A program made the position numbers and the translations under genes. The notes under the pieces were generated by a model. The model saw only the letters and a program-made list of their open reading frames with translations, was not told where the DNA came from and did no database searches. Source: Minisyncoccota bacterium (GTDB taxonomy: Bacteria; Patescibacteriota; Minisyncoccia; Phycocordibacterales; XYD1-FULL-46-19). From it: a stretch of DNA of 64,000 nucleotides. Shown here in pieces: positions 2,087-42,109 of the stretch. Position 1 is the first letter of the stretch. Each line of letters starts with the position of its first letter. The stretch covers positions 11,364 to 75,363 of the forward strand of contig JBAZRF010000003.1 of assembly GCA_041663165.1 (NCBI GenBank), in the 5' to 3' direction.

Positions 2087-3119
2087 AAATTTTTGGCTAG
2101 ACCTGACCAAGCCCTTTTTTGCTTTGGCGCCGATGTATGACGTGACCGACGCGGCGTTTCGAGCGATGTTTGTAAGACACAGTAAAAGCCGTGCGAAGTC
2201 GGATCTGGCTACGCGAGATACGACTTCGCACGACCTCGTCTTGTTTACTGAATTTGTGTCCGCTGACGGTTTGGCGAGCGAAGCGGGGCGACTGAAGCTC
2301 CGCCGCGAACTTTATTACACGGAGGCCGAACGGCCGATTGTGGCCCAGATTTTTGGCTCTAAACTGGAGAGTATTGAACAGGCCATTAAATTGGTTAAAG
2401 AGCTGGGTTTTGACGGCGTGGACATCAATATGGGCTGTCCCGATCGAGCGGTGGAGAAACAGGGGGCGGGAGCTGCTTTGATTAAAAATCCCAAGTTAGC
2501 GCGAGAAATTATCGCGGCGGCGAAAAAGGCGGCTGGGAAGATGCCCGTCTCAGTGAAAACACGAATTGGTTACAATAAAATAGATTTCGATTGGATCCAG
2601 ACAATTTTAGACGCTAAACCCGATGCGGTTACTTTTCATTTACGTACTCGTAAAGAAATGTCAGACGTGCCAGCGCATTATGAAGTTGTCCCTGAAATTG
2701 TGAGAATTTTTAAAAGCAGTGGCATTCCCATCATAATCAATGGCGATGTGAAGAGTGTTGAGGAGGGTCAAGAATTGGTAAAAAAATACAGTATTGATGG
2801 AGTGATGATTGGCCGAGGGGCGTTTGGGAAGCCCTGGGTGTTCGCTAAAGACGCAGTGCGAAGTCGCATTTCAGGCTCACTTGAAAAACGACTTCGCATG
2901 GCCGTTGAACATTCTAAACTTTTTTGGGATTTATACGGAGATACTCAAACTAACCAAAAACTTTTCAACGGCCACACCAAAAACTTTGCCGTTATGCGCA
3001 AGCATTTCAAAGCCTACGCCTCTGGCTTCAAAGGGGCAACGGCTCTTCGGGCCAAATTAATGCAAGCAAATAATCCCGATGAAGTTGAAAAGATAATAGA
3101 CGAATTCTTGCTGGATTGA
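2064..3119 (+). CDS. dus: tRNA-dihydrouridine synthase
   Basis: FALAPMYDVTDAAFR and INMGCP motifs with TIM-barrel Dus layout. The ORF track starts at TTG 2055; ATG 2064 is the more likely start. Contains two in-frame palindromic inserts. Confidence 0.8.
   Translation: MKNCQPTKNFWLDLTKPFFALAPMYDVTDAAFRAMFVRHSKSRAKSDLATRDTTSHDLVLFTEFVSADGLASEAGRLKLRRELYYTEAERPIVAQIFGSKLESIEQAIKLVKELGFDGVDINMGCPDRAVEKQGAGAALIKNPKLAREIIAAAKKAAGKMPVSVKTRIGYNKIDFDWIQTILDAKPDAVTFHLRTRKEMSDVPAHYEVVPEIVRIFKSSGIPIIINGDVKSVEEGQELVKKYSIDGVMIGRGAFGKPWVFAKDAVRSRISGSLEKRLRMAVEHSKLFWDLYGDTQTNQKLFNGHTKNFAVMRKHFKAYASGFKGATALRAKLMQANNPDEVEKIIDEFLLD
2191..2231. repeat. Palindromic element, family A (GTGCGAAGTCG-GATCTGGCTACGCGAGATA-CGACTTCGCAC), in-frame within dus
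   Basis: Perfect 11-bp terminal inverted repeat. The core recurs at 31558, 33219 and 41833. Confidence 0.8.
2856..2899. repeat. Palindromic element, family B (GTGCGAAGTCGCATTT...AAAAACGACTTCGCA), in-frame within dus
   Basis: Inverted termini GTGCGAAGTCG/CGACTTCGCA. A near copy lies in prmC at 12986-13026. Confidence 0.7.
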
Positions 3120-3189
3120 TTAATCATCATTTTGTGTTATAAATAAAGACGGAAGAAACTGGTTCCGTTCTACAAGGGAGGGTTGGGTC

Positions 3190-3480
3190 ATGTTTTTAGG
3201 ACTTCGCAGTTGGGTTTGGTGCGTTCTAACGTTCTTGGCTAGGATGGCTTTGGACTGGGACAACGCTGAGCTGGTCAGTTTGTCCGAAATAATCGAAAGA
3301 CTTCACTCTGGCCAGGAGGGCGTGAATCTCGAGTTAGAAGATCGGGAATCTCTCGCCTGTCGACTCGAGGAGCAAGAAGCAGAGTTGCGTGCCAAGGTGT
3401 CTTTGCTTGAGAGGAGGTTGTCTTGGTGGAGGAAGGTTCTCTATCTTCCGAGTCTTTCCGTGACAGGTGGCGGGGTATGA
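3190..3480 (+). CDS. Hypothetical small protein (96 aa, hydrophobic N-terminus plus coiled-coil) in a GC-rich island
   Basis: SD-like GGGAGGG lies 8 nt upstream of ATG. The region is GC-rich, with several overlapping short ORFs on both strands, so coding status is uncertain. Confidence 0.25.
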   Translation: MFLGLRSWVWCVLTFLARMALDWDNAELVSLSEIIERLHSGQEGVNLELEDRESLACRLEEQEAELRAKVSLLERRLSWWRKVLYLPSLSVTGGGV

Positions 3481-3683
3481 GGGATTCTTTTTCTCGGCTC
3501 CTATCCCTATGTCTCGGTGGGGACTCGCGTTGCCCCTCCAAAGCTGAGGCTGAAACTCACAAGGGGCCCAAGATAGACCCTCTCGGTTCGCCGTCCGAGC
3601 CGCAGAGGATTCGCTCCGGCGGCGGGGGAGTTCCTGCCGCCAAGATTGTCGCCTGTTACCGGGCGACTGACCCCGTTTGCGAT

Positions 3684-3720
3684 GCCGTCACTCGTCCCGA
3701 GTGACGGCATTTCGTGATTT
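3684..3720 (+). terminator. Rho-independent terminator-like hairpin (GCCGTCACTC-GTCCC-GAGTGACGGC followed by ATTTCGTGATTT) ending the GC-rich segment upstream of dnaX
   Basis: 10-bp perfect stem followed by a T-rich tract. Confidence 0.4.
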
Positions 3721-3767
3721 ACTATCTACTACTTTTACTCCTTACTACTTGCTGTTATAATCCCCGT

Positions 3768-4805
3768 ATGTCCGAACTAGCCCTTTATCGCAAATATCGT
3801 CCCTCAAAATTTAGCGAGGTCATCGGCCAAGAGCAGGTAACCGGTGTTTTGGAATCAGCCATTAAGCAAGGCAACCTTGTCCACGCCTATCTCTTTGTCG
3901 GTTCGCGGGGCACGGGCAAAACGAGCGTAGCCCGGATTTTCGCTAAAACGATTGGCACTAGCGACAATGACCTGATTGAGATCGATGGCGCCTCCAACCG
4001 CGGTATCGATGAAATTAGAGCCTTACGCTAGGCCGTGCGCACCCTGCCGTTCGAATCCAAGTATAAGGTTTATATTATTGACGAGGTGCACATGCTCACT
4101 AAAGACGCCTTCAATGCCCTGCTCAAAACTCTTGAAGAGCCTCCGGCCCATGTCATCTTTATTTTAGCCACAACCGAACAACATAAAGTTATAGACACGA
4201 TCGTCTCACGTTGCCAAACCTTCATTTTTAAAAAACCAACCAACGAGATTCTTAAAAAAGTTGCCAAAGATATTGCTAAGAAAGAGGGCTTCACTATCGC
4301 CGATGATGTCGCCGATTTGCTCGCTTTTATGGGTGATGGCTCCTTTCGTGACACCATCGGTATTTTGCAAAAAATAATTGGTTCGTCGGCTGACAAAAAG
4401 ATCGCGCTTGAAGAGGTACAAAATATCACTGGCGCGCCACCGCTTAAGTTAGTTTATGATTTAGTCGAAGCGATTGCTGATAATAATTTAGATGGTGCAC
4501 TCACGGTCATTGACCAAACGGCTGAGGCGGGGACAGATTTTAAAATTTTCCTAAAACTCGTAATGCGCGAGATTCGCTTGGCCCTGCTCACCACCATGTC
4601 GCCCACTTTAAAAACTAAAATTTTGGCCGAAGCGGGGGATAAAGAAAAAGAATTTTTCACCACCCTCTCTACCAAACCCGGCTCGAAAAATCTTGCCACT
4701 GCCTTGCGCGAATTTCTCGATACTTATAACCTTCTCGGTGGCAGTTTCTCCCCCCAGATTCCATTAGAGCTAGCGGTGGTGAAAATTTTGGAACCAAAAG
4801 CTTAA
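3768..4805 (+). CDS. dnaX: DNA polymerase III subunit gamma/tau, interrupted by an in-frame TAG at 4029-4031
   Basis: Walker A GSRGTGKTS, then YKVYIIDEVHM and SRC motifs. Both ORF pieces (3714-4031 and 4035-4805) are in the same frame and are separated only by TAG. Confidence 0.8.
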
Positions 4806-12722: not shown

Positions 12723-13637
12723 ATGAAGAAAAATAATTTCGATAAAGAAATAACTTGGCTTAAACGTGATCGGCCTGATTATTATGCCCAAGGGATAAAA
12801 AGGCTAAAGACTGGCGAGCCTGTCGACTATGTCATCGGCTGGCGAGAATTTTTGGGCTGTAAAATCGATTTGTCGGCAAAGCCCTTGATTCCGCGCGAAG
12901 AGACTGAATTTTGGGTGGGCGAGGTTTTGAGAAGTTGGACTTCGATGAGCCCGAAGTCCAACTTCGCGAAACCGAACAAAGCGGCGTGCGAAGTCGCATT
13001 TAGTTCCACAAAAAACGACTTCTCACAACCGCTTAGAGTCCTCGATTTGTTTGCTGGTTCCGGCTGCATCGGCCTGGCCATTCTTAAACATATTCCTAAC
13101 GCCCATGTTACTTTTGCCGAGAAAGATCCGAAACTTTGCGAGCAAATTAAAAAAAATCTCTCTCTCTTTCCCCCGACAACCCGTAAGGGTGCCCAAGGGT
13201 TGTCGGGTCGAGCGCGGGTCATTCAATCAGACATTTTTCAAGCTTATCGAAGTCGAACTTCGATAAGCCCTAAAAAGTTGGGGATAAAGTATACAAAAAA
13301 CCCTTATTTATTGAAGTTGGACTTCGTGCAAGAGAAATTCGACGTTATCTTCGCTAATCCACCCTATGCCGCCACTAGCAAAATGAAATTAATTAGCCCA
13401 TCGGTGCTCCAGTGGGAACCGAAAAAGGCGGTGCTTGGTGGCGTTGACGGCTTAACTTTTATCAAAAAATTTCTCAAACAAGCCAAAGATCATTTAAATA
13501 CTAATGGGCGAATTTATCTCGAATTTGGTCAGGGGCAAAAAACGAAAATTGAGAAGTTGATTAAACAGTTCGACTACGCTCACTGCCGATTTCATCGGGA
13601 TCAATTCGGCAAATGGCGCTTCGTGGTGATAGAATAA
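12723..13637 (+). CDS. prmC: Release-factor glutamine N5-methyltransferase PrmC/HemK
   Basis: NPPY motif (FANPPY) and SAM-binding DLFAGSGCIG. About 25-30 aa longer than typical because of in-frame repeat inserts. Confidence 0.8.
   Translation: MKKNNFDKEITWLKRDRPDYYAQGIKRLKTGEPVDYVIGWREFLGCKIDLSAKPLIPREETEFWVGEVLRSWTSMSPKSNFAKPNKAACEVAFSSTKNDFSQPLRVLDLFAGSGCIGLAILKHIPNAHVTFAEKDPKLCEQIKKNLSLFPPTTRKGAQGLSGRARVIQSDIFQAYRSRTSISPKKLGIKYTKNPYLLKLDFVQEKFDVIFANPPYAATSKMKLISPSVLQWEPKKAVLGGVDGLTFIKKFLKQAKDHLNTNGRIYLEFGQGQKTKIEKLIKQFDYAHCRFHRDQFGKWRFVVIE
12931..13026. repeat. Composite palindromic element cluster in prmC (GAAGTTGGACTTCG, CGAAGTCCAACTTCG and a family-B unit)
   Basis: Nested inverted repeats. 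Encodes an extra about 30 aa (WTSMSPKSNFAKPNKAACEVAFSSTKNDFS). Confidence 0.7.
13245..13327. repeat. Palindromic elements in prmC (perfect palindrome TTATCGAAGTCGAACTTCGATAA, then AAAAACCCTTATTTATTGAAGTTGGACTTCG)
   Basis: The second unit is the reverse-orientation copy of the uvrC unit at 41078-41110. Confidence 0.65.
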
Positions 13638-19323: not shown

Positions 19324-19360
19324 AAAATAACATCCTTACAAACTTGAGAATGTAAGGATG
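19324..19360. repeat. Hairpin repeat copy 1 (AAAATAA-CATCCTTACA-AACTTGAGAA-TGTAAGGATG)
   Basis: 37/37 identical to 23040-23076. Contains a 10-bp perfect palindrome. Confidence 0.85.
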
Positions 19361-19385
19361 AGAATTGATCCGAATAAACCCGCTT

Positions 19386-19751
19386 TTATTTAGTAAGTCT
19401 TTTCCGCCAATTGATGAGAAACAAAATGCCGATCAGAAAGGCTGGGCCGGCGATTATTACCGACCACGAGATCATGTACCATTCAAATCTGGGCTTCATG
19501 GCTAAGAGGAGAATATAAAGCAAGCCAGCGAGAATAAAAGCGATTCCGCCCACGATCTCATAGCGCCAAGAAATCCATAGGATGATCGCCAAAACAAAGA
19601 CCGGAATATTGTGCATGAATAGTCCAACGACGGTTCCCCAAAAACCGTAATTGCCATCAAAGATATCTAAAGAAAACATTGCTAGAAAAATAATAAAGAC
19701 AACTGAAGCAATTCTTGGCATCCAATAGATAAATTTGTTGATTTTGGTCAT
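19386..19751 (-). CDS. Hypothetical small membrane protein (121 aa, 3-4 TM)
   Basis: Hydrophobic ORF co-directional with the 942-aa gene. Confidence 0.45.
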   Translation of the reverse strand: MTKINKFIYWMPRIASVVFIIFLAMFSLDIFDGNYGFWGTVVGLFMHNIPVFVLAIILWISWRYEIVGGIAFILAGLLYILLLAMKPRFEWYMISWSVIIAGPAFLIGILFLINWRKRLTK

Positions 19752-19756
19752 CGTTT

Positions 19757-20116
19757 TTATCCCCTAACTTTTTTGTAAATGATTATTCCCAAACTGACGA
19801 AGAGAAAGATGGCACTTAAAAACCAGGTTAGAATATATTTATTTATACAAATCTCAAAAAAACCGTGGCAGTAATCGGGAGTGAAAACCTCGGCCAGAAC
19901 TGATAAGGGGATAAAGATGATGGCAAATTTACTCCATGTTTTGAATATTTGGTTAGAAAAAAACAAAAGGATGACTAGAGTTAAAATTATTATTGGTGTT
20001 GCTATAGCTAAGGGTAAACCAAGAGAAAAAGCACTAGATTTTAACCAAAAATCCGCCCAAACGTAAAGAGCTAGACAAATAGCGATAAACACCCAAATAG
20101 TTTTTTTGTGAGACAT
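19757..20116 (-). CDS. Hypothetical small membrane protein (119 aa)
   Basis: Hydrophobic ORF. Confidence 0.45.
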   Translation of the reverse strand: MSHKKTIWVFIAICLALYVWADFWLKSSAFSLGLPLAIATPIIILTLVILLFFSNQIFKTWSKFAIIFIPLSVLAEVFTPDYCHGFFEICINKYILTWFLSAIFLFVSLGIIIYKKVRG

Positions 20117-20117
20117 T

Positions 20118-22946
20118 TTATTTCAAATTATCTAATAATTGATTAAGCATTTTAACAAGAATATCTTTGTCTGATTGGGGAATTATTTGCCGGTTGCGCC
20201 AGTGCGGACGATCGGCCAGCCAAACGGTCAATTTTATTCTGCGTTCAACGTTCTTTATTTTTCCTCGCTCGATTAATTTTATCATATTATCGATCCTCGC
20301 TTCTAATAACTTTTCCACTAAAGGCTTAAGGTCAAAACTGGCGACAACCTTTTTCATCATTTGTAAGTAAAGAATTAGATCAAAACCGGTATTTGGTTTA
20401 ACGGCAAAATCATTTTTGCCATCACCATCGGCGTCGATTAATAGAGTTGTCGAAGTTCCAGCCGAGACGTTTAAACTGGCTATCGTCATTGGCGTAACGG
20501 GGATATCGGTAAATGATACAGTTGTAGTACTAACACCATCGGTTGTTTCTTCTTGCTCGTAACTAAAAATACCAAAGCTTAACCCCGCTAATTTTATCGC
20601 ATAATTAGCTGGGGCGAGCCCGTTTCCGAAGGGTAAAACAATGTATTTACCCTCGCCAAAATCAAGATATTTGCTATTAGGGATATCCTCTTCGATCAAT
20701 TGCAAATCTGAATTCGGGTTCGGATTAGGAATAAGCCCAGTGTGATTGCCTAAATTATCATAAGCATTAAGCGAGACGGGCGAATGGACGCTAATGAGTA
20801 AGTTTTTTTGCCCTGCCGTTGGAGTCGGTTTGGCTAGAGAAAAATAATTTGGTAAATCAATAGTGTTTTTGATGAGATTTGTGATTTCTTGTTGCACAGA
20901 GCTCATTTCGAAAATATCTTTATGCACCCAACTTTTATTATTAACCTCATTGTATTTCTGTATATCAAGGTAAAAATCTCTATGACTCCCCACTGCTCCG
21001 GTGGCGCTTGGCGAAACCACCGTCCCGTCGCCGTCGGTGGTGAGGAGGGGGTGGATGTCGAGCTTGTTGTCTTTAGCTAAATACTCGGTGGTTTTGAGGG
21101 TGGGGATGCCCCAACCGGCGATTTGAATTACCTCGGTCGTTGTCGGGAATTGCCAATTGTCGAGGTTATCATGAGTAATCTGACTTTTGGTGAACATTTG
21201 GGAATTTAAAATATTGGGGGTCGCCAGGTTGGTTACCGCCGGTTTGGCTCGGCCGTCAAGTTGACCAAGCGCAAATTGCTGGAGTTTGTCGGCCGATGAA
21301 ATTTCGGTGCCGTAGCTAGCCAAACCGGGCATAATTTTTACCGCTGACTGGTCGAATTTAATTACTGGTTCTTGCACGGTGGCAAAATATTTGGTTGAAG
21401 GGAGGAGATTGTAAGCTGACGGCATATTCTCAACCGCTTGGCGCGCGACCGATTGATTAAGGAGAAAGCCGTAACCTAAGGCTTGATCAGCGCCATGGAG
21501 CATGGTGGGGATAGCTTCAGGCGTGCCGAGTTGTGGTACCGCTACCAAAATTACTTTATCAATTTTGTCGACTAAATCGCTTTGGTTAGAGGTTTTCATT
21601 TCTTGTAATTTTTGCATTAAAGCCTTTGCCACCAAACCCCCGTTTGAGTGGGCAACAATTGTCACCTTGCCATTTTTGGAGCGGTTGGCTAATTTTTGAA
21701 TCTCGGCGATCATGTAGGGAAGTTGTCCGGCCGACAAGTCGGAAGTATAAGAAATACCCTTTGTTGTCGTTGCCCCGCGCGCAACCACTTTATCTAAATC
21801 AAAACGCCAATCATAAGGCAGGGGTTCAAAATCGGCAATATCGCCAGCGGCCACCATTTTATTCATTGATTTGATGAAACCATCATAAATCGGCATGAAG
21901 CCGAGAAAAGCGTTATCAATTACTTCGCGGGTGTAGATTGAAGGATCAACACTCTCGCCAGCGGTCGTCATAAATAATTTACGGGCATCATCGTTGCGGT
22001 TAGGCACCCACAATTCGTTCTCACAATTAAACAACGTGCAACCCGGTTCTTGGCGATACAAGAAGCTGGCTTCGACACCGGGGATAAAAACAACACTTGA
22101 GAAACCGAACGGCGAGGTGGTAAAAGAATTCTCATCACTTACGGTTGGCGGGATAACTGCTGGCGTTTGGCCAATCCAGGGGTCAAAAAGGACATTAGCG
22201 CCAACGATCTTATCACCTAAACCGTTTGGGTTAAGATCGACATGGTAGGGTCCGCTATTATCGCCCCACCAATTATGGCGCGCGTCCATTGCTCGACCAT
22301 AATAGTCTCGCAGGCCAGCCTCGGTATTATGATGAATTTGACTTTGCGTGATATTGGCCGTGCCGTCTATGAAACCAAAACCAACATTATTATTGGTCAA
22401 AATACTGGCGCTGATGGTGGTGGAGCCACTTTCTTGATAAATACCTAGCGGATTGTTGGTTAACTGCGAATCGGTGATCAGTGATTCGCCGCCAGCGGCG
22501 TGGATAGCCGCGCCACCAGAATAAAAACCAGCATAACGAGCGATCACGTGAGCGAAATTAAGATGACCGGTGGCGAGGACATATAATTGATCCCAATCGC
22601 GCATCGCCGGTATGGTGGTGGTGCCATCGCCGTTTGAGTCGCCACTAATCGAATCATCTTTGTAAGAAGTAAAATAAATTTCGTCACCGGTGTTGCCTTG
22701 GGCGCTAAGCTCCCCGTTGATGTAAAAAGCGGATTTATTTTTGAATTTGACAATAGTACCCGGTTCGAGGGCGAGGGTTACGCCGTTATTAATATAAACG
22801 TCATCGGTTATGATGTAGGGGCTAGCAGCTTTGGTCCAAGTGGTATTAGTGCTTAGGCTGGCACCCGAAATTATCGTCTCAGCGAAAAGTGACAGAGGCG
22901 AGCTTAATAAAAGTAACGTTATCAAAAAAATAAATCTTTGAAACAT
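20118..22946 (-). CDS. Secreted 942-aa protein: N-terminal parallel beta-helix repeats, then an alpha/beta-hydrolase (lipase/esterase-like) domain
   Basis: Signal peptide; NxxGxxF beta-helix-like repeats; nucleophile-elbow-like VAHSNGG; long C-terminal region of unknown function. Confidence 0.55.
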   Translation of the reverse strand: MFQRFIFLITLLLLSSPLSLFAETIISGASLSTNTTWTKAASPYIITDDVYINNGVTLALEPGTIVKFKNKSAFYINGELSAQGNTGDEIYFTSYKDDSISGDSNGDGTTTIPAMRDWDQLYVLATGHLNFAHVIARYAGFYSGGAAIHAAGGESLITDSQLTNNPLGIYQESGSTTISASILTNNNVGFGFIDGTANITQSQIHHNTEAGLRDYYGRAMDARHNWWGDNSGPYHVDLNPNGLGDKIVGANVLFDPWIGQTPAVIPPTVSDENSFTTSPFGFSSVVFIPGVEASFLYRQEPGCTLFNCENELWVPNRNDDARKLFMTTAGESVDPSIYTREVIDNAFLGFMPIYDGFIKSMNKMVAAGDIADFEPLPYDWRFDLDKVVARGATTTKGISYTSDLSAGQLPYMIAEIQKLANRSKNGKVTIVAHSNGGLVAKALMQKLQEMKTSNQSDLVDKIDKVILVAVPQLGTPEAIPTMLHGADQALGYGFLLNQSVARQAVENMPSAYNLLPSTKYFATVQEPVIKFDQSAVKIMPGLASYGTEISSADKLQQFALGQLDGRAKPAVTNLATPNILNSQMFTKSQITHDNLDNWQFPTTTEVIQIAGWGIPTLKTTEYLAKDNKLDIHPLLTTDGDGTVVSPSATGAVGSHRDFYLDIQKYNEVNNKSWVHKDIFEMSSVQQEITNLIKNTIDLPNYFSLAKPTPTAGQKNLLISVHSPVSLNAYDNLGNHTGLIPNPNPNSDLQLIEEDIPNSKYLDFGEGKYIVLPFGNGLAPANYAIKLAGLSFGIFSYEQEETTDGVSTTTVSFTDIPVTPMTIASLNVSAGTSTTLLIDADGDGKNDFAVKPNTGFDLILYLQMMKKVVASFDLKPLVEKLLEARIDNMIKLIERGKIKNVERRIKLTVWLADRPHWRNRQIIPQSDKDILVKMLNQLLDNLK

Positions 22947-23039
22947 TTTTTACTTTTTTATTTTACACCCAACTTGATTTTTATTAAAACTTTTGCGGAC
23001 AACCTAAGTGCCTTGCAGCAATCACGGGGGTGTCTTGCC

Positions 23040-23081
23040 AAAATAACATCCTTACAAACTTGAGAATGTAAGGATGTTATT
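23040..23081. repeat. Hairpin repeat copy 2 (15-bp stem), lying in the divergent promoter region
   Basis: AATAACATCCTTACA-AACTTGAGAA-TGTAAGGATGTTATT. Confidence 0.85.
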
Positions 23082-30810: not shown

Positions 30811-30818
30811 TTAATTTA

Positions 30819-30855
30819 GAAGTCGTACTTCAAGTGAGCCCGAAGTCCGACTTCG
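30819..30855. repeat. Intergenic palindromic elements (GAAGTCGTACTTC then CCCGAAGTCCGACTTCG)
   Basis: Same GAAGTC...GACTTC motif family as the intragenic copies. Confidence 0.6.
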
Positions 30856-30945
30856 AAATTATTTAAACCTAGAAAAAAGAAAACCCGCCACACGCCAACG
30901 GTGGGTTCTCCCAGTGCGTTGATGCGGGGCGGGGACAGGCAGGGG

Positions 30946-31395
30946 CTATTTCAGGAGTTCGAAATCCAGCGATCCGTCAGGACCCATGCTCGGAGCACAC
31001 ACTTCAAGCTTTTTGAAACCGTTTGTGCTCCACGGGATGCGAATTTCGATTCGCTCGACACCTTCCACCTTCATCGCTTGCCTGATTGCGATGAGGAAAT
31101 GTCGTTGTGTCGGAGTTGGCATACCGGCATAGCGGAGGAATAGCTCCTGATTGTCGAAGAAGATATCCACGCCATTGTCGGCGGCCGGGATTCGGAAGCG
31201 TGGTTTCGATTTAGACTCGCCCCTTAGTTCTTTTTCAACACCGGGCAAATCTTCTCCTATTCCCACCTGCTGTCCGGCCCACCATCTCTTATAGAATTCG
31301 TCGAAAAGACACTCCAACACCTTACGAGTAGTAACTTGCATGACAAACTCCTTTCTTTGGCTCGAATCACTGCGCAGGATGCGTTTTGCGCTCAT
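30946..31395 (-). CDS. Hypothetical protein (149 aa), GC-richer than its surroundings
   Basis: ORF with a TTGACA-containing promoter-like sequence upstream on the minus strand. Confidence 0.4.
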   Translation of the reverse strand: MSAKRILRSDSSQRKEFVMQVTTRKVLECLFDEFYKRWWAGQQVGIGEDLPGVEKELRGESKSKPRFRIPAADNGVDIFFDNQELFLRYAGMPTPTQRHFLIAIRQAMKVEGVERIEIRIPWSTNGFKKLEVCAPSMGPDGSLDFELLK

Positions 31396-31486
31396 TCGGC
31401 CAGTTGTGCATCCGATATAATAAAACCAGTTTTAATAAAAGATGTCAAGTATTTTAAAATAAGCCGAAGTTGTATAATTAACAAAT

Positions 31487-32548
31487 ATGAAAACAATATT
31501 TTTTGAATTAGAAAATTGGGAAAAAGAGTATATCGAAGCGAGTTCGGGGTCGGATTCGCAAAGTTCGAAATCGGATCTGGCTACGCGAGATACGATTTCG
31601 AACTTTGTTTTTGTCGATGGGATTTTGGATGAGGAGACGGTTGGTAAATTAACAGACGAGCAAAAGGGCACAGATATTATTTCGATTTTTGTTGACTCGG
31701 TAATCAATGCAAAAATTTTGGCGAGTTTTCCCAATCTCAAATTAATTTGCACTCGTTCGACCGGCTATGATCACATTGATATCGAAGCGTGTAAGGCCAA
31801 GGGCGTAGCGGTGGCGACTGTGCCCAGTTATGGCGAAGAGACGGTGGCGGAATACGCTTTTGCTTTAATGCTCACGCTCTCACGCAAAATTTTTGAAAGT
31901 TACGACCGCATTAAAAAGACGGGGAGCTTTGACCTTACCGGCATGCGCGGTTTTGATTTAAATGGTAAAACTCTAGGAGTAATTGGCACGGGCAAGATCG
32001 GCAAAAATGTGATTGAGATTGCCAAAGGCTTTAATATGAAAGTGATTGCTTATGATAAATTCCCCGACGAGGCTTATAAACAAAAAATGGGTTATGACTA
32101 CTTAATGATGGACGAAGTGCTGGCTCAAGCTGATATTTTGACCTTGCATGTGCCCTACCTGCCCGAAAACCACCATTTAATCAATGCCGAAATAATTGCC
32201 AAAATGAAAAAGGGTGTTTACTTAATCAACACCGCTCGCGGAGCGTTGGTTGAGACGGAAGCTTTGCTCAAGGGTCTTAAAGGTGGAGTGATTGCCGGCG
32301 CCGGTTTAGATGTGCTTGAAGAAGAGGGGATAATTAAAGATGAGCTAAACTTCTTGACGGGTGCTCACCCGGGCGAGCACGATTTGCGGGTGGTGCTCGA
32401 AAATCACGTTCTTGTCGATATGCCAAATGTTGTCGTCACGCCCCACAACGCCTTCAACACTTGGGAGGCTCTGCAACGCATCCTCAATACGACGCTTGAA
32501 AATATAAAATCTTTCTCTTCCGGAATGCCGCAAAACGTGGTAAAGTAG
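31487..32548 (+). CDS. D-isomer-specific 2-hydroxyacid dehydrogenase (D-lactate/phosphoglycerate dehydrogenase family)
   Basis: NAD-binding GVIGTGKIG with catalytic R/E/H layout. Carries a family-A palindromic insert near the N-terminus. Confidence 0.8.
   Translation: MKTIFFELENWEKEYIEASSGSDSQSSKSDLATRDTISNFVFVDGILDEETVGKLTDEQKGTDIISIFVDSVINAKILASFPNLKLICTRSTGYDHIDIEACKAKGVAVATVPSYGEETVAEYAFALMLTLSRKIFESYDRIKKTGSFDLTGMRGFDLNGKTLGVIGTGKIGKNVIEIAKGFNMKVIAYDKFPDEAYKQKMGYDYLMMDEVLAQADILTLHVPYLPENHHLINAEIIAKMKKGVYLINTARGALVETEALLKGLKGGVIAGAGLDVLEEEGIIKDELNFLTGAHPGEHDLRVVLENHVLVDMPNVVVTPHNAFNTWEALQRILNTTLENIKSFSSGMPQNVVK
31558..31606. repeat. Palindromic element, family A variant (CAAAGTTCGAAATCG-GATCTGGCTACGCGAGATA-CGATTTCGAACTTTG)
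   Basis: Perfect 15-bp terminal inverted repeats. The core loop is identical to 2191-2231. Confidence 0.8.
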
Positions 32549-32552
32549 CGGA

Positions 32553-33848
32553 GTGAAATTCGAAATACAGAAGAAAATGCAGGCTGGTCTAGGCCGGGCC
32601 GGAGTAATTCATACAGCGCATGGCGATATTGAGACGCCGGCGTTTGTAACGGTGGGGACTAAGGCGACGGTTAAGGCGCTCACGCCCGAGATGGTTAATT
32701 CGCTCGGTGCGCAGGTGGTGCTCGCCAACACTTACCATTTATATCTTCAGCCGGGAGATGAACTGATAAAAAAAGCCGGCGGTCTCCATAAGTTTATGAA
32801 CTACAACGGCCCAGTGATGACCGACTCGGGCGGTTTTCAGGTCTTCTCTCTTGGCGCGGCGTTCGGCGAAGGGGGTATTTCGAAATTTGTTAAAAACTCT
32901 GATAATCTGTGTACAAAATCGTCAAATAAGTCTTATTTTTCGAAATCCAACTTCGAACACGAGGAGGCCATCGTCAAGTTGGCCAAAATTGACGAAGACG
33001 GTGTAACTTTTAAATCAATTATTGACGGTTCGGAGCATCGCTTTACACCGGAGCGGTCGATGCAAATTCAGCATAATCTTGGTGCAGATATTATTTTTGC
33101 TTTTGATGAATGTACTTCACCTCTTGCCGATTATGAATATCAAAAGCAAGCGATGGAGCGAACCCATCGCTGGGCGGAACGGTCTTTGGCTGAACATCAG
33201 AGATTAAACGCCGAAGCTGGTTCGAAGTCGGATCTGGCCCCCACTTCGCCAAGGCTCCGAGGGGTAAATACGCGAGATACGACTTCTAACCCAGCCCTGT
33301 TTGGTATTGTGCAGGGTGGTCGACATCAAGATTTGAGAGAAGAAAGCGCGCGATTTTTGGCCGGATTATGTCCGCCTACTGGCGGATTTGACGGCTTTGG
33401 CATTGGTGGATCATTTAATAAAGAAGACATGGGCACGGCTGTTGGTTGGGTGAGCCAGATTTTGCCCGAAGATAAACCGCGACACTTGCTGGGCATTGGT
33501 GAACCAGCCGATATTATTGAGGGTATTAAAAATGGCGCCGATACTTTTGATTGTGTCACGCCTACCCGGATGGCCCGCAACGGGACGCTAATGGTTAAGG
33601 GTGGAAGACTTAATATCTTTAACGCTCAATATCGCGAAGATTTTGGCCCGATCGAAGAGGGTTGTGGTTGTTACACTTGCCAGCTCAACTCTGATGGCAC
33701 GGCCAAATATTCTCGCGCTTACTTGGCCCATCTCTTTCGCGCGAAAGAAATTCTCGCTTCAACTCTCGCTTCGATTCATAACCTTTATTTTTTGGTAAAC
33801 TTTACAAAACAAATTCGGAGTGATATTTTAGAAAACAGACTTGGCTAA
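32553..33848 (+). CDS. tgt: Queuine tRNA-ribosyltransferase (tRNA-guanine transglycosylase)
   Basis: VMTDSGGFQVFSL, zinc site CGCYTC, ending HNLYF. About 55 aa longer than typical because of two in-frame inserts. Confidence 0.85.
   Translation: MKFEIQKKMQAGLGRAGVIHTAHGDIETPAFVTVGTKATVKALTPEMVNSLGAQVVLANTYHLYLQPGDELIKKAGGLHKFMNYNGPVMTDSGGFQVFSLGAAFGEGGISKFVKNSDNLCTKSSNKSYFSKSNFEHEEAIVKLAKIDEDGVTFKSIIDGSEHRFTPERSMQIQHNLGADIIFAFDECTSPLADYEYQKQAMERTHRWAERSLAEHQRLNAEAGSKSDLAPTSPRLRGVNTRDTTSNPALFGIVQGGRHQDLREESARFLAGLCPPTGGFDGFGIGGSFNKEDMGTAVGWVSQILPEDKPRHLLGIGEPADIIEGIKNGADTFDCVTPTRMARNGTLMVKGGRLNIFNAQYREDFGPIEEGCGCYTCQLNSDGTAKYSRAYLAHLFRAKEILASTLASIHNLYFLVNFTKQIRSDILENRLG
32876..32960. repeat. 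AT-rich palindromic insert in tgt (AAATTTCGAAATTT ... TTTTTCGAAATCCAACTTCGAA)
   Basis: A perfect 14-bp palindrome plus a CGAAATCCAACTTCG unit. Encodes an extra about 30 aa after the FSLG motif. Confidence 0.6.
33219..33291. repeat. Family-A palindromic element with an internal 32-nt insertion, in-frame in tgt
   Basis: TTCGAAGTCGGATCTGGC, then an insert, then CGCGAGATACGACTTCTAA. Confidence 0.75.
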
Positions 33849-40702: not shown

Positions 40703-42109
40703 ATGGAGTCTCGCGACTTAAAAAAATATAGATTACCCGATAGGCCTGGGGTGTACTTTTTTAAACGTCAACGGAAAATTCTTTATATTGGCAAAGCAAC
40801 ATCACTTAAAGACCGAGTGAAGAGTTACTTTGCTGGTGATTTGGGCGAAACACGTGGGCCAAAGATTACCCAGATGCTGGCTTTGGCCAAAAAAATTGAT
40901 TGGCAAGAAACCGATTCGGTTTTAGAGGCCTTATTGTTGGAAACGGAATTAATTAAGAAGCATCAACCGCCTTACAATACCCGCGAGAAGGATGATAAGA
41001 GTTATTGGTATGTGATTATCACCGACGAAGACTTTCCGCGCATTTTGCCCATCCGTGGCCGGGAACTAGAAAACTCAAAAAACCCTTATTTTGCGAAATC
41101 CAACTTCGAATTTGGGCCGTTTCCGTATGGGGCCGAGATGAAAGAAGCGCTTAAAATAATTCGCAAGATTTTCCCGTATCGGGACAAATGTGAGCCTTGC
41201 AAACTACGCGAGGAACGACCTCGGGCGCACTTGAGGTCGCACCTCTCTCCGTTTTGCAAAGCTTGTTTTAATCGCCAGATTGGTTTATGCCCGGGTGTCT
41301 GCACTGGCGAAATTTCGAAAACTGATTATCAAAAAATCGTCAGAAACATCAAATTGTTTTTCGAAGGCAAGAAAAAAGAAGTACTTAAAAATCTTGAACG
41401 AGAAATGAAGATTCTGGCGAAAGAACAAGAATTTGAAAAAGCGAGTAAAACTAGAGATCAGATTTTTGCATTAAATCATATTAGGGATGTGTCATTGCTT
41501 AAGAAGAAAGGACGAGCGGAGAGAGGTGAATCCTCAAGTGAGCCCGAGGTCTCACCTCGCGGAGCTCGTTCTATTAGAATTGAAGCTTACGATATTGCTC
41601 ACCTATCCGGTAAAAATACCACTGGCGCAATGGTGGTGTGGCAAAATGGCGAAATGGATAAAAATGAGTATCGTAAGTTTAAGCTAAAGGGATCAAAAGC
41701 TAATCAACCTGATGACTCGGCCAATTTGCGCGAAATCCTAGAGCGACGTTTTAATCACCCGGAGTGGTCCTTACCAGATATTATTGTGGTGGATGGGAAT
41801 CAGGTGCAAAGGGATGTCGTTGAAGAGGTTTTGCGAAGTCGCATCTGGCTACGCGAGAAACGACTTCTCAAAACGGGCCCTGGCGATGTGAGAAATGCGA
41901 CTTCAAGTGCGCCCGAAGTCGTTTTTCGCACAGAGCCAGAACAAATTAAAGCCATTGCCGTGACCAAAGACGACAGGCATAAGGCTTCTAACCTCATCGG
42001 AGATTCGGCTATTATTCGGGATTACCACCGCCCAATAATTGAGGCCAATGCCGAAGCCCATCGTTTTGCACTGGCCTACCATAGAAAATTACGCCGGCGA
42101 TTGGTATAA
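40703..42109 (+). CDS. uvrC: Excinuclease ABC subunit C (short form, 468 aa, no recognisable C-terminal HhH region)
   Basis: GIY-YIG N-terminus (GVYFF...ILYIGKA), a Cys-rich region and a UvrB-interaction-like region. Carries at least five palindromic-element copies. Confidence 0.8.
   Translation: MESRDLKKYRLPDRPGVYFFKRQRKILYIGKATSLKDRVKSYFAGDLGETRGPKITQMLALAKKIDWQETDSVLEALLLETELIKKHQPPYNTREKDDKSYWYVIITDEDFPRILPIRGRELENSKNPYFAKSNFEFGPFPYGAEMKEALKIIRKIFPYRDKCEPCKLREERPRAHLRSHLSPFCKACFNRQIGLCPGVCTGEISKTDYQKIVRNIKLFFEGKKKEVLKNLEREMKILAKEQEFEKASKTRDQIFALNHIRDVSLLKKKGRAERGESSSEPEVSPRGARSIRIEAYDIAHLSGKNTTGAMVVWQNGEMDKNEYRKFKLKGSKANQPDDSANLREILERRFNHPEWSLPDIIVVDGNQVQRDVVEEVLRSRIWLREKRLLKTGPGDVRNATSSAPEVVFRTEPEQIKAIAVTKDDRHKASNLIGDSAIIRDYHRPIIEANAEAHRFALAYHRKLRRRLV
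41093..41110. repeat. Palindromic unit GCGAAATCCAACTTCGAA in uvrC
   Basis: With upstream AAAAACCCTTATTTT it mirrors the prmC unit at 13290-13327 in reverse orientation. Confidence 0.6.
41216..41250. repeat. Element copy (CGACCTCGGGCGCACTTGAGGTCGCACCTCTCTCC), inverted relative to 41518-41556
   Basis: 30/35 match to the reverse complement of 41518-41552. Also 23/25 to the reverse complement of 41897-41921. Confidence 0.7.
41518..41556. repeat. Element copy (GGAGAGAGGTGAATCCTCAAGTGAGCCCGAGGTCTCACC)
   Basis: Forms an inverted-repeat pair with 41216-41250, about 270 bp away, inside the uvrC coding sequence. Confidence 0.7.
41833..41869. repeat. Family-A palindromic element (GCGAAGTCGCATCTGGCTACGCGAGAAACGACTTCTC) in uvrC
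   Basis: Same core as 2191-2231. Confidence 0.8.
41897..41921. repeat. Element copy GCGACTTCAAGTGCGCCCGAAGTCG
   Basis: The CAAGTG(C/A)GCCCGA(A/G)GTC motif is also present at 30826-30855, 41231-41250 and 41535-41552. Confidence 0.7.

What the first reader, a model, noticed from the sequence alone, without database searches (positions are those of the whole stretch)
31558..33291. Three in-frame palindromic inserts in the adjacent dehydrogenase and tgt genes
A family-A unit with 15-bp perfect terminal inverted repeats sits near the N-terminus of the 2-hydroxyacid dehydrogenase, encoding SKSDLATRDTIS. tgt carries an AT-rich palindromic insert after the conserved FSLG motif and a family-A unit that is itself interrupted by a 32-nt insertion (AGSKSDLAPTSPRLRGVNTRDTTS). 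Tgt here is about 431 aa versus about 375 typical. Nested insertion indicates repeated activity of the element family.
Basis: seen in the sequence. Interest (0 to 1): 0.6.

Follow-up and report, generated by a model that had tools for sequence, protein, structure and literature searches.

The report
Tiny hairpin repeats inserted inside genes
Two neighbouring housekeeping genes of an ultra-small (CPR/Paceibacteria) bacterium carry in-frame copies of a dispersed family of 33-50-nt hairpin-forming DNA repeats that are translated as extra surface loops, a Rickettsia-like "selfish DNA inside genes" phenomenon that I could not find described for this phylum and that shows some unusual twists.

Summary
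The D-2-hydroxyacid dehydrogenase (31487-32548) and Tgt (32553-33848) each carry a copy of "family A". This is an invariant 33-nt imperfect hairpin, GAAGTCG[G/C]ATCTGGC-TAC-GCGAGA[T/A]ACGACTTC, with a copy-specific complementary outer stem.

- **Nested insert:** the Tgt copy is split exactly at its apex by a 30-nt (not 32-nt) second repeat, "N".
- **Third insert:** the "AT-rich palindrome" is only partly right. It is not a significant palindrome, and its left "arm" is conserved Tgt codons. It does contain a 27-nt repeat shared with uvrC.
- **Insertions, not ancestral sequence:** close relatives (75-87% identical) have empty sites in Ldh, Tgt, Dus and UvrB.
- **Copy number and frame:** I found 45 non-redundant A copies in related Paceibacteria/Vogelbacteria MAGs. 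35 lie inside genes, in both orientations and several frames, and all preserve the reading frame.
- **Structure:** outer stems covary. Cores stay identical at orthologous sites whose flanks are only 68-82% identical.
- **Negatives:** no target duplication, no GTAG/CGTC tag, no transposase in the window, no Rfam hit.

Best reading: REP/RPE-like non-autonomous hairpin repeats tolerated in protein loops. This is a new variant of a known kind. The mobilisation mechanism is unresolved.

The parts
31487..32548 (+). Host gene 1: D-isomer-specific 2-hydroxyacid (D-lactate-type) dehydrogenase, 353 aa
   Evidence: ORF. Pfam 2-Hacid_dh_C 3.5e-56 and 2-Hacid_dh. Best PDB match is D-lactate dehydrogenase 3kb6, 1.8e-67.
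31559..31607 (+). Family-A hairpin copy 'A2', core 31567-31599 (GAAATCG variant). In frame, encoding QSSKSDLATRDTISNF near the Ldh N-terminus.
   Evidence: DNA fold -20.5 kcal/mol, z -11.3. Absent from the closest homologues P0128 and P0131 and from L023 and L027. Present alone in P0121.
31538..31558 (+). 21-nt degenerate partial copy or duplicate of the left arm (GCGAGTTCGGGGTCGGATTCG, 'ASSGSDS'), directly upstream of A2
   Evidence: 13 of 21 identical to the left arm of A2 (my own count on the sequence). Absent in P0121, which has only the A unit. L022 has a full A' unit at this place.
32553..33848 (+). Host gene 2: tRNA-guanine(34) transglycosylase (Tgt), 431 aa. Catalytic and Zn residues are intact.
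   Evidence: ORF. Identical to P0001. Pfam TGT 1.1e-132. AF2 model pLDDT 83.9, TM 0.90 to Z. mobilis TGT. DSGG, AFDEC, FDCV and CxCxxC...H are conserved.
32889..32966 (+). Tgt variable site 1 (aa 113-138, VKNSDNLCTKSSNKSYFSKSNFEHEE). A lineage-specific lengthening, AT-rich, not a significant palindrome.
   Evidence: Alignments A1 and A4. About 40 residues extra relative to solved TGTs. Fold z -1.5. pLDDT below 50 at 116-139.
32931..32957 (+). 27-nt 'C-type' repeat unit inside site 1, containing a small hairpin TTCGAAAT-CCA-ACTTCGAA. Encodes SYFSKSNFE.
   Evidence: Shared with uvrC 41084-41110, L025 Tgt site 1 and L018.
33219..33291 (+). Family-A hairpin copy 'A3' in Tgt site 2, split at its apex by element N. 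Encodes GSKSDLA-PTSPRLRGVN-TRDTTSN.
   Evidence: Empty site in L025 and L027; an A' variant sits at the same position in L022. About 25 residues extra relative to solved TGTs. pLDDT below 50 at 236-241.
33239..33268 (+). Nested 30-nt repeat 'N' (CCCCACTTCGCCAAGGCTCCGAGGGGTAAA). Not itself a hairpin.
   Evidence: Fold z +0.17. Copies also sit at the apex of B hairpins in L013 and L008 and of another hairpin in L004. 4 of 7 N-like copies are at hairpin apices.
33371..33386 (+). Mini-hairpin TCCGCC-TACT-GGCGGA inside a 15-nt insert (LCPPTGG)
   Evidence: Absent in L022, L023 and L025; present in L027. Baseline length in 95 of 119 homologues. Fold z -3.7.
2190..2232 (+). Family-A copy 'A1' in the tRNA-dihydrouridine synthase gene (RAKSDLATRDTTSHD)
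   Evidence: L024 orthologue has a clean empty site, so this is a 42-nt insertion with no target duplication.
2857..2898 (+). B-type hairpin (loop AGGCTCACTT, the reverse complement of AAGTGAGCCT) in dus
   Evidence: L024 and L030 carry an inverted A copy at this same site.
12923..13026 (+). Two adjacent hairpin units (B at 12923-12973; A2-type at 12985-13026) in the prmC/hemK-like methyltransferase
   Evidence: About 25 residues extra relative to T. maritima HemK.
30812..30861 (+). Intergenic B hairpin (loop AAGTGAGCCC) immediately after the ppsA stop codon, in a terminator-like position
   Evidence: Fold z -6.8. Weak terminator-like match.
41084..41931 (+). uvrC stretch that contains five separate repeat units: C-type 41084-41110; B (reverse) 41210-41245; B 41523-41558; A4 41828-41874 (read in another frame, LRSRIWLREKRLL); B 41885-41931. 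The sequence between these units is ordinary uvrC coding sequence.
   Evidence: The A4+B doublet recurs in the ComEC genes of four other genomes.

Best explanation
The inserts are copies of a dispersed set of very small, hairpin-forming, non-autonomous DNA repeats. The host is a Paceibacteria ('Vogelbacteria'-like, Candidate Phyla Radiation) genome.

**Anatomy of family A.** It is a 33-nt imperfect hairpin whose sequence and mismatch positions are fixed. This core is flanked by 4-9 bp of copy-specific but mutually complementary outer stem.

**How it works.**
- Shown: copies are inserted DNA, because empty sites exist in relatives.
- Shown: they land in either orientation and in several frames, and 5 of the 6 frames have no stop codon.
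- Inferred: they are read through by the ribosome, adding 14-25 hydrophilic residues. They survive only where the protein tolerates it, that is, in loops between conserved secondary-structure elements of Ldh, Tgt, Dus, PrmC, UvrB/C, PolA, ComEC and others.
- Shown: tolerated loops are hit repeatedly, which gives clusters such as A followed by B. The apical loop of an existing hairpin is itself a preferred insertion point, which explains the nested 30-nt unit in Tgt.

**Inferred, not shown.**
- Spread depends on the single-stranded hairpin structure and on a trans-acting enzyme encoded elsewhere, REP/RAYT-like or something else.
- The invariant core is kept uniform among copies by copy-to-copy conversion or replacement.
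- The outer stems drift with compensatory changes.
- Intergenic copies sit where terminators would.
For: **Insertion.**
- dus A1 is a clean 42-nt insertion relative to L024.
- The uvrB site is empty in the window and L022 but filled in L005, L023 and L036.
- Tgt site 2 is empty in L025 and L027, and 68 of 119 homologues have the 8-10-residue baseline.
- The Ldh site is empty in P0128, P0131, L023 and L027.

**Dispersal.**
- There are 24 genomic and 29 metagenomic stretches with the exact 25-nt core, giving 45 non-redundant copies.
- Host genes are unrelated: PolA, DNA-alkylation repair, XerC/D-like recombinase, ComEC, RNase HII, enolase, Pol III delta', Fmt, a class-V aminotransferase and TsaD.

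**Translation.**
- All 35 genic copies keep one frame open for at least 25 codons on both sides.
- 5 of 6 frames are stop-free.
- The single copy found in the closed frame carries TAG>CAG (L036).
- Tgt catalytic and Zn residues are intact.

**Location in loops.**
- PDB alignments place the extra residues between conserved blocks.
- The AF2 model (pLDDT 83.9) has pLDDT below 50 only at 97-109, 116-139 and 236-241.
- TM to Z. mobilis TGT is 0.90.

**Structure dependence.**
- Fold z-scores run from -4.5 to -11.3.
- Outer-stem covariation is 0.26, against 0.087 in shuffles (0 of 500 reach it) and 0.05-0.09 in slid controls.
- Subfamily A' differs from A by three compensatory pair changes and keeps the same mismatch positions (my own reading of the sequences).
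- The uvrB trio GCGGTT/AACCGC, GCAGTT/AACTGC and GTGGTT/AACCAC shows in-situ compensatory changes.

**Apex nesting.**
- N sits at the apex of A (window), of B (L013, L008) and of another hairpin (L004).
- A different 33-nt insert sits at the A apex in L036.

**Precedent.** In-frame palindromic repeats are known in Rickettsia (RPEs) and as intragenic REPs in uvrA, uvrB and recB.
Against: - No mobilising enzyme was found. None of the 48 window ORFs has a transposase, integrase or Y1 domain. Whole genomes could not be searched.
- No target-site duplication appears at three filled/empty comparisons.
- No GTAG/CGTC end tag is present (for the criterion; sequences).
- Orientation shows no bias relative to local GC skew, 23:22. 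This gives no support for lagging-strand ssDNA transposition.
- Simple copy-and-decay does not explain the core conservation. The core is 33/33 identical, or differs only by a linked two-position haplotype switch, at orthologous sites whose flanks are 68-82% identical. The outer stems there can be completely different. That pattern needs in-situ constraint, gene conversion or recurrent replacement.
- Translation is inferred from frame preservation, not observed.
- No recent transposition event (identical copies with identical outer stems at new sites within one population) was demonstrated.
Confidence: 0.7

Rival explanations
1. The hairpins are host-functional DNA or RNA motifs kept by selection at each site, not selfish insertions. 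Possible roles are a binding or processing site for a protein, an mRNA stabiliser or terminator module, or a DNA-uptake or recombination signal spread by molecular drive.
For: - The 33-nt core is 33/33 identical at orthologous sites in up to four species while flanks are 68-82% identical. My estimate for a neutral 25-mer surviving is about 0.75^25, or 7e-4.
- Mismatch positions are conserved across subfamilies, and stems covary.
- Intergenic copies lie between convergent genes or after stop codons. GC-rich B hairpins are followed by T-runs.
Against: - Occupancy is patchy among close relatives at every site examined.
- Copies occur in both orientations relative to transcription, 24 sense and 11 antisense, and in several frames.
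- Host genes are unrelated.
- Density is low, about 1 family-A copy per 16 kb in the window, so the element is unlike uptake sequences.
- No Rfam family matches.
- The linked two-position haplotype switches at orthologous sites point to conversion or replacement rather than site-wise purifying selection.
Confidence: 0.17
2. The palindromes arose locally and independently in each gene, by replication template switching or slippage that creates inverted duplications. They did not arise by dispersal of an element.
For: - Some very small inserts are unique palindromes: TCCGCCTACTGGCGGA in the window Tgt, and the 18-nt perfect palindrome CCTGCCTGCGCAGGCAGG in L023 Tgt.
- Arms of orthologous copies co-vary in situ. 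Quasi-palindrome correction would produce that pattern.
Against: - The same 33-nt core, including its non-complementary positions, is found in more than 15 unrelated genes and 6 or more genomes.
- The inserted DNA, including the outer stems, has no counterpart in the flanks of empty sites.
Confidence: 0.04
3. The inserts are intervening sequences that never reach the protein. They would be excised from the mRNA at the hairpin, or bypassed by the ribosome as with the mitochondrial 'byp' elements or T4 gene 60.
For: - The hairpins are strong, up to -20 kcal/mol.
- CPR bacteria are known for intervening sequences in rRNA genes (own knowledge).
Against: - All 35 genic copies preserve the frame and lack stops. 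Without a need for translation only about one third would.
- The copy in the one stop-containing frame has lost the stop.
- One hydrophilic frame (SKSDLATRDTTS) is strongly preferred, 15 of 24 sense copies.
Confidence: 0.03

Closest known systems
Rickettsia palindromic elements (RPEs; Ogata et al. 2000, 2002, as summarised in PMC10969869)
   Same: Both are dispersed palindromic repeats inserted in frame into unrelated housekeeping genes of a reduced genome. Both are translated, sit at positions compatible with the protein fold, and lack an associated transposase.
   Different: - RPEs are described as about 150 bp. These elements are 33-50 nt.
- The phylum differs (CPR/Paceibacteria), and I see no indication of sequence relationship.
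- About 78% of family-A copies are intragenic, against roughly half of RPEs.
- The core is invariant across species, with variable covarying outer stems.
- Insertions nest at the hairpin apex.
Intragenic REPs of the GTAG/CGTC super-families (Di Nocera et al. 2013, PMC3733652), including R. conorii RPE-4 and RPE-6
   Same: - Both are 20-40-bp stem-loops, often in dimers or clusters.
- Some REPs lie inside ORFs, notably replication and repair genes (uvrA, uvrB, recB), and encode 20-30 residues.
- Many extragenic REPs lie downstream of genes.
- Here uvrB, uvrC, polA and holB-like genes are hit.
   Different: - There is no GTAG or CGTC tetranucleotide at either end.
- Stems are longer, about 20 bp including the outer stem, against 5-13 bp.
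- Copies are mostly intragenic rather than mostly extragenic.
REPIN-RAYT systems (Bertels and Rainey; bioRxiv 10.1101/2021.07.10.451892)
   Same: Both are non-autonomous hairpin repeats that persist and stay close to a 'master sequence' over long periods of vertical inheritance. Doublet arrangements occur in both (A followed by B doublets).
   Different: - REPINs are about 100 bp, number hundreds per genome, and are 'almost exclusively extragenic'.
- No RAYT was found here: none in the window, and the rest of the genome could not be tested.
- Copy number is low, a few to tens per roughly 1-Mb genome.
Small dispersed repeats (SDRs) of Nostoc punctiforme (Elhai et al. 2008; own knowledge, paper not retrievable)
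   Same: Both are very small (about 21-27 nt) mobile repeats found inside otherwise conserved sequences and nested in other repeats or hairpins. Neither has a known transposase.
   Different: SDRs are cyanobacterial and, as far as I recall, mostly non-coding. This comparison rests on memory and was not tested here.
Coding palindromes in Nematomorpha mitochondrial genes (PMC6649704) and mitochondrial 'byp' bypass elements (own knowledge)
   Same: Both are inverted repeats or short inserts embedded in protein-coding genes.
   Different: - The Nematomorpha palindromes are long (up to 284 bp), gene-specific, perfect inverted repeats, not a dispersed family.
- byps are not translated. The elements here preserve the frame.

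Membership tests
Rickettsia palindromic elements (RPE) | Dispersed palindromic repeat inserted in frame in protein-coding genes and read as part of the protein | tested here: met
   35 of 35 genic copies keep the frame. Empty sites exist in relatives.
Rickettsia palindromic elements (RPE) | Element size about 100-150 bp, belonging to the described RPE families | tested here: not met
   Elements are 33-50 nt. RPEs are described as about 150 bp. No sequence comparison with RPE consensus sequences was run.
Rickettsia palindromic elements (RPE) | Insertions sit at positions compatible with the protein fold (surface loops) | tested here: met
   PDB alignments place the inserts between conserved blocks. 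In the AF2 model only the inserts have pLDDT below 50. TM to Z. mobilis TGT is 0.90. Surface exposure itself is inferred.
REP (GTAG/CGTC super-families) | Short (20-40 bp) stem-loop repeated many times in a genome | tested here: met
   33-nt core hairpin. 2-6 exact-core copies per MAG in the scan and 4 in the 64-kb window. Copy number is modest.
REP (GTAG/CGTC super-families) | GTAG or CGTC tetranucleotide at one end, not involved in pairing | tested here: not met
   The consensus ends are GTGC...TCAC, with no such tag at either end of A or B.
REP (GTAG/CGTC super-families) | Predominantly extragenic, downstream of genes | tested here: not met
   24 sense plus 11 antisense copies are intragenic, against 10 intergenic or at gene edges.
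REPIN-RAYT | Cognate single-copy RAYT (Y1/HUH transposase) in the genome, typically flanked by the repeats | not testable with these tools
   No Y1_Tnp or other transposase among the 48 window ORFs, and none obvious next to intergenic copies. Whole genomes could not be scanned.
REPIN-RAYT | Two REPs in inverted orientation forming a doublet of about 100 bp | tested here: inconclusive
   A followed by B doublets occur in the same orientation in 8 of 45 copies. An A' plus inverted A pair occurs in L022 Ldh. Most copies are single.
MITE | Terminal inverted repeats plus a target-site duplication, derived from a parent IS | tested here: not met
   No direct duplication at the dus, uvrB or tgt filled/empty junctions. 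The whole element is one hairpin, and no parent IS was seen.
IS200/IS605-type single-strand transposition | Orientation bias relative to the replication strand | tested here: not met
   Local GC skew is positive for 23 copies and negative for 22 when each locus is oriented on the element. This is a weak proxy.
Untranslated intervening or bypass elements | Inserts break the frame or carry stops and are removed or skipped | tested here: not met
   Frame and openness are preserved in 35 of 35 genic copies. One copy has a rescued stop, TAG>CAG.
DNA uptake sequences (DUS/USS) | Short linear motif at about 1 per kb, arising by point mutation rather than insertion | tested here: not met
   About 1 family-A copy per 16 kb in the window. 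Copies are 42-nt insertions. Hairpin covariation is present.

The most novel reading that the evidence does not exclude
These may be a previously undescribed class of ultra-small (33-50 nt) hairpin replicators specific to Paceibacteria. Three properties would define the class:
- They live mainly inside protein-coding genes.
- They integrate preferentially at the apex of existing hairpins, so elements grow like Russian dolls and tolerated protein loops are hit repeatedly.
- Their 33-nt core is held invariant across species by copy-to-copy conversion or by a dedicated, still unknown structure-specific enzyme, while the outer stems evolve by compensatory change.

If so, they would be a main driver of the large length variation seen in CPR housekeeping proteins, for example Tgt at 376-496 aa.
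Probability: 0.35. Interest if true: 0.8.

Novelty: new variant of a known kind. Interest (0 to 1): 0.62.

Why it matters
- **Biology of streamlined genomes.** CPR/Patescibacteria genomes are among the smallest and most streamlined known. Yet a handful of genes in this 64-kb window (dus, prmC, ldh, tgt, uvrC) carry about 15 hairpin repeat units inside their coding sequence. This extends the 'selfish DNA inside genes' phenomenon, so far tied mainly to Rickettsia and a few REP-rich bacteria, to a very different lineage and to much smaller elements.
- **Practical consequences.** These inserts inflate and diversify protein lengths. They can confuse orthology, domain annotation and structure prediction. 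They also mark insertion-tolerant loops in enzymes such as Tgt, UvrB, PolA and ComEC.
- **Mechanism.** The element combines an invariant core, covarying outer stems, linked two-position haplotype switches at orthologous sites, and apex-targeted nesting. Current REP, MITE and RPE models do not account for that combination. It gives concrete, testable handles on how tiny hairpins spread and persist.

Tried and rejected
- **Rfam.** The gathering-threshold scan of the whole window found only three tRNAs. E-value scans of 31400-33400 and 3100-3800 found nothing credible.
- **Transposase search.** Pfam on 48 window ORFs found no transposase, integrase or RAYT. ORFs beside intergenic copies showed nothing obvious.
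- **Extending the contig.** The look-up of encoding contigs on the window-edge proteins returned no record.
- **Target-site duplication.** None was found at the dus, uvrB or tgt junctions.
- **'Outer stem copied from the host flank' model.** Rejected. The outer stems lie wholly within the inserted DNA at dus and uvrB.
- **Orientation relative to GC skew.** No bias.
- **Viral contigs.** No copy found.
- **First AF2 model.** The 27-sequence alignment gave too low a confidence to use, pLDDT 60. I replaced it with a 119-sequence model.
- **Corrected error.** I first treated L001, L007 and L020 as uvrC orthologues of the window copy. That was wrong. They are PolA and ComEC genes that share only the A+B doublet. 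The orthology analysis was redone.
- **Literature.** I found nothing on palindromic or in-frame repeats in CPR, Patescibacteria or Parcubacteria in the held library. Elhai et al. 2008 could not be retrieved.
- **The AT-rich Tgt insert as a palindrome.** Rejected.


Full report
**What is in the sequence**

The interval covers two adjacent, co-oriented genes. The first is a D-isomer-specific 2-hydroxyacid dehydrogenase (31487-32548, 353 aa). The second is tRNA-guanine transglycosylase, Tgt (32553-33848, 431 aa).

At 31559-31607 there is a 49-nt hairpin whose outer 15 bp are perfectly complementary, with a TAC loop. As single-stranded DNA it folds at -20.5 kcal/mol, z = -11.3 against shuffles. 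In frame it encodes QSSKSDLATRDTISNF.

In tgt the same unit occurs at 33219-33291. It is split between GGC and TAC, at the hairpin apex, by 30 nt (33239-33268).

The third 'AT-rich palindromic' insert is only partly real.
- The region after FSLG is lengthened in this lineage.
- It does not fold better than shuffles (z = -1.5).
- Its supposed left arm, ATTTCGAAATTT, is the conserved G-I-S-K-F codons of Tgt.
- It does contain a 27-nt unit (32931-32957) shared with uvrC 41084-41110 and with the same Tgt site in another genome.

**The organism and the family**

The Tgt protein is identical to a JGI metagenome protein. Its relatives are annotated Candidatus Vogelbacteria or Paceibacterota, which belong to the Candidate Phyla Radiation.

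'Family A' has a 33-nt core, GAAGTCG[G/C]ATCTGGC-TAC-GCGAGA[T/A]ACGACTTC. The window holds four copies:
- dus, 2190-2232
- ldh
- tgt
- uvrC, 41828-41874, read in a different frame as LRSRIWLREKRLL

Related hairpin families are also present.
- **B** has the conserved loop AAGTG[A/C]GCC[C/T] on stems of quite different sequence.
- **A' and A2** differ from A by compensatory pair changes and keep the same mismatch positions.
- **C** is a short 27-nt unit.

Together they give about 15 units inside dus, prmC, ldh, tgt and uvrC, plus one just after the ppsA stop codon. Hairpins with stems of at least 12 bp number 52 in the window, against 14-29 in Markov simulations.

Exact-core scans gave these results:
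- 24 stretches in six species-level MAGs
- 29 stretches in a few JGI metagenomes
- none in viral contigs

After removing duplicates there are 45 copies. Of these, 24 are sense to a long ORF, 11 are antisense, and 10 are intergenic or at gene edges.

**They are insertions**

Orthologous comparisons give clean empty sites.
- dus in L024 lacks exactly 42 nt.
- uvrB is empty in the window and L022 but filled in L005, L023 and L036.
- Tgt site 2 is empty in L025 and L027. It has the 8-10-residue baseline in 68 of 119 homologues, against 33 residues in the window.
- The Ldh site is empty in the closest homologues P0128 and P0131 (82-84% identical) and in L023 and L027.

Solved TGTs have 2 residues where the window has about 42 (site 1), and 7 residues where it has about 32 (site 2).

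Other genomes carry different units at the same two Tgt sites and at the Ldh site. These include A in the opposite orientation (EVVSRVARSDFE), A', B (EVGLQVSPKSDF) and nested forms.

No target-site duplication is visible at any junction. The outer stems belong to the inserted DNA.

**They are almost certainly translated and tolerated in loops**

- All 35 genic copies keep one frame open for at least 25 codons on both sides.
- The core has stops in only one of six frames.
- The one copy found in that closed frame has TAG changed to CAG (L036).
- The hydrophilic frame SKSDLATRDTTS is used in 15 of 24 sense copies.
- Tgt keeps its catalytic Asp residues and its Zn ligands.
- An AlphaFold model built on 119 homologues has mean pLDDT 83.9. 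pLDDT falls below 50 only at 97-109, 116-139 and 236-241, which are the insert regions.
- The model superposes on Z. mobilis TGT with TM 0.90 normalised to the target.
- PrmC shows the same pattern relative to T. maritima HemK.

**Unusual features**

(i) *Outer stems covary.* In 29 aligned copies the core is invariant. The 8 bp outside it differ from copy to copy and remain complementary. The covariation score is 0.26, against 0.087 in shuffles (0 of 500 reach it) and 0.05-0.09 in slid controls. A C·T mismatch next to the core is conserved.

(ii) *The core is conserved in situ.* I compared orthologous sites in ComEC, the XerC/D-like recombinase, the alkylation-repair enzyme, UvrB, Fmt, RNase HII and Dus.
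- The flanking gene DNA is 68-82% identical.
- The core is either 33/33 identical or differs only by a linked switch between two haplotypes, G8..T25 and C8..A25.
- There are 26 copies of the first haplotype and 19 of the second, and they are never mixed.
- The outer 12 nt range from identical to unrelated.
- The UvrB trio shows two clean compensatory double changes: GCGGTT/AACCGC, GCAGTT/AACTGC and GTGGTT/AACCAC.

Even allowing for ascertainment by exact match, neutral decay cannot give this pattern. My estimate is about 7e-4 per 25-mer pair. So the cores are either constrained in place, or repeatedly converted or replaced from other copies. The all-or-none haplotype switches favour conversion or replacement.

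(iii) *Nesting at the apex.*
- The 30-nt unit N is not itself a hairpin (z = +0.17).
- It lies at the apex of an A hairpin (window), of B hairpins (L013, L008) and of an unrelated hairpin (L004).
- A different 33-nt insert sits at the A apex in the Tgt of L036.
- Protein alignments show further nested forms in P0002, P0004 and P0124.

(iv) *Ordered doublets.* When a B loop lies within 75 nt of A, it is downstream and in the same orientation in 8 of 9 cases.

**Mechanism**

*Shown:* insertion, dispersal, frame preservation, hairpin covariation, apex nesting, and patchy occupancy.

*Inferred:* spread depends on the folded single strand and on a trans-acting factor. Selection then leaves only copies in tolerant loops and open frames. 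Hairpin apices are fragile or targeted sites. Cores are homogenised by conversion.

*Not supported:*
- classical MITE transposition, because there is no target-site duplication
- membership of the GTAG/CGTC REP super-families, because there is no end tag (for the criterion)
- a replication-strand bias

No transposase is encoded in the window. Whole genomes could not be scanned.

The main rival is a host-functional DNA or RNA motif. It is kept alive by the in-situ core conservation and by the terminator-like intergenic copies. It is weakened by patchy occupancy, both orientations, several frames and unrelated hosts.

**Comparison with what is known**

- **RPEs.** In-frame palindromic repeats are the hallmark of Rickettsia RPEs. 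These are about 150 bp, fall into ten families, and have 44 copies in R. conorii, nearly half of them in ORFs.
- **Intragenic REPs.** Short intragenic REPs have been catalogued in several bacteria. They are notably found in uvrA, uvrB and recB, often as dimers encoding 20-30 residues.
- **REPINs.** These are about 100 bp, almost exclusively extragenic, and RAYT-dependent.

The present elements work like these but fail their defining membership tests on size, end tags and extragenic location. They also add features not described for them.

I found no report of such elements in CPR or Patescibacteria in the searchable library. This is not proof of absence.

**Verdict**

This is a real and well-supported phenomenon. 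I rate it a new variant of a known kind, of moderate to high interest, with an open mechanism.

Noticed in passing
window 3769-4805 (in-frame TAG at 4030-4032): The dnaX gene (Pol III gamma/tau) starts at ATG 3769 but is interrupted by a single in-frame TAG ('EIRALR*AVRTLPFES', where DnaX usually has Glu). The ORF list therefore shows only 4035-4805, and Pfam matches start at profile position 96. Possible causes are a sequencing or population variant, a pseudogene, or readthrough.
   Followed up: partly
window 3480-3760: A GC-rich, strongly structured non-coding stretch lies upstream of dnaX. It has hairpins at 3589-3624 and 3679-3713, the latter followed by a T-run. It has no ORF and no Rfam match. 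This is the position where SRP RNA often lies in bacteria (own knowledge).
   Followed up: partly
window 19324-23076: A 3.7-kb segment (19361-23039) carries a DUF7670 gene and a 942-aa LCAT-like alpha/beta-hydrolase gene. It is flanked by 37-nt direct repeats of a hairpin, AAAATAACATCCTTACAAACTTGAGAATGTAAGGATG. The related genome L012 has a single copy of the repeat and lacks the segment. This is an insertion or deletion mediated at a terminator-like hairpin.
   Followed up: partly
window 33684-33704: A 21-nt (7-aa, LNSDGTA) insert sits immediately after the third Zn-binding Cys of Tgt. It is shared with L022 and L025 and absent in L023 and L027. 99 of 119 homologues have the short form, and some carry other inserts here of up to 57 residues.
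   Followed up: partly
L023 Tgt 5' end; P0006 and P0034 in alignment A1: A separate class of very short GC-rich perfect palindromic inserts recurs at other Tgt and Ldh positions in relatives. One is the 18-nt CCTGCCTGCGCAGGCAGG, encoding PACAGR. Peptides include LPAGRQG, PFDSAQGR and LAPGKAG.
   Followed up: no
L001, L006, L020, L051 (intergenic): The B-family loop AAGTGAGCCC also tops GC-rich stems of unrelated sequence (CCCGCCAGACCTT...AAGGTCTGGCGGG). Two of the four examples (L020, L051) are followed by T-runs and look like intrinsic terminators. A conserved loop on interchangeable stems is unexplained.
   Followed up: partly
window 41828-41931; L007, L020, L028, L044: The A(C..A)+B doublet of the window's uvrC recurs as a unit in the ComEC competence-channel genes of four other genomes (LRSRIWLREKRLL...RNATS..EVVFRT). 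This first misled me into treating those loci as uvrC orthologues.
   Followed up: yes
window 30946-31395 (- strand): A 149-aa ORF with no Pfam match lies on the opposite strand between ppsA and ldh, in a GC-richer patch. Its function is unknown.
   Followed up: no
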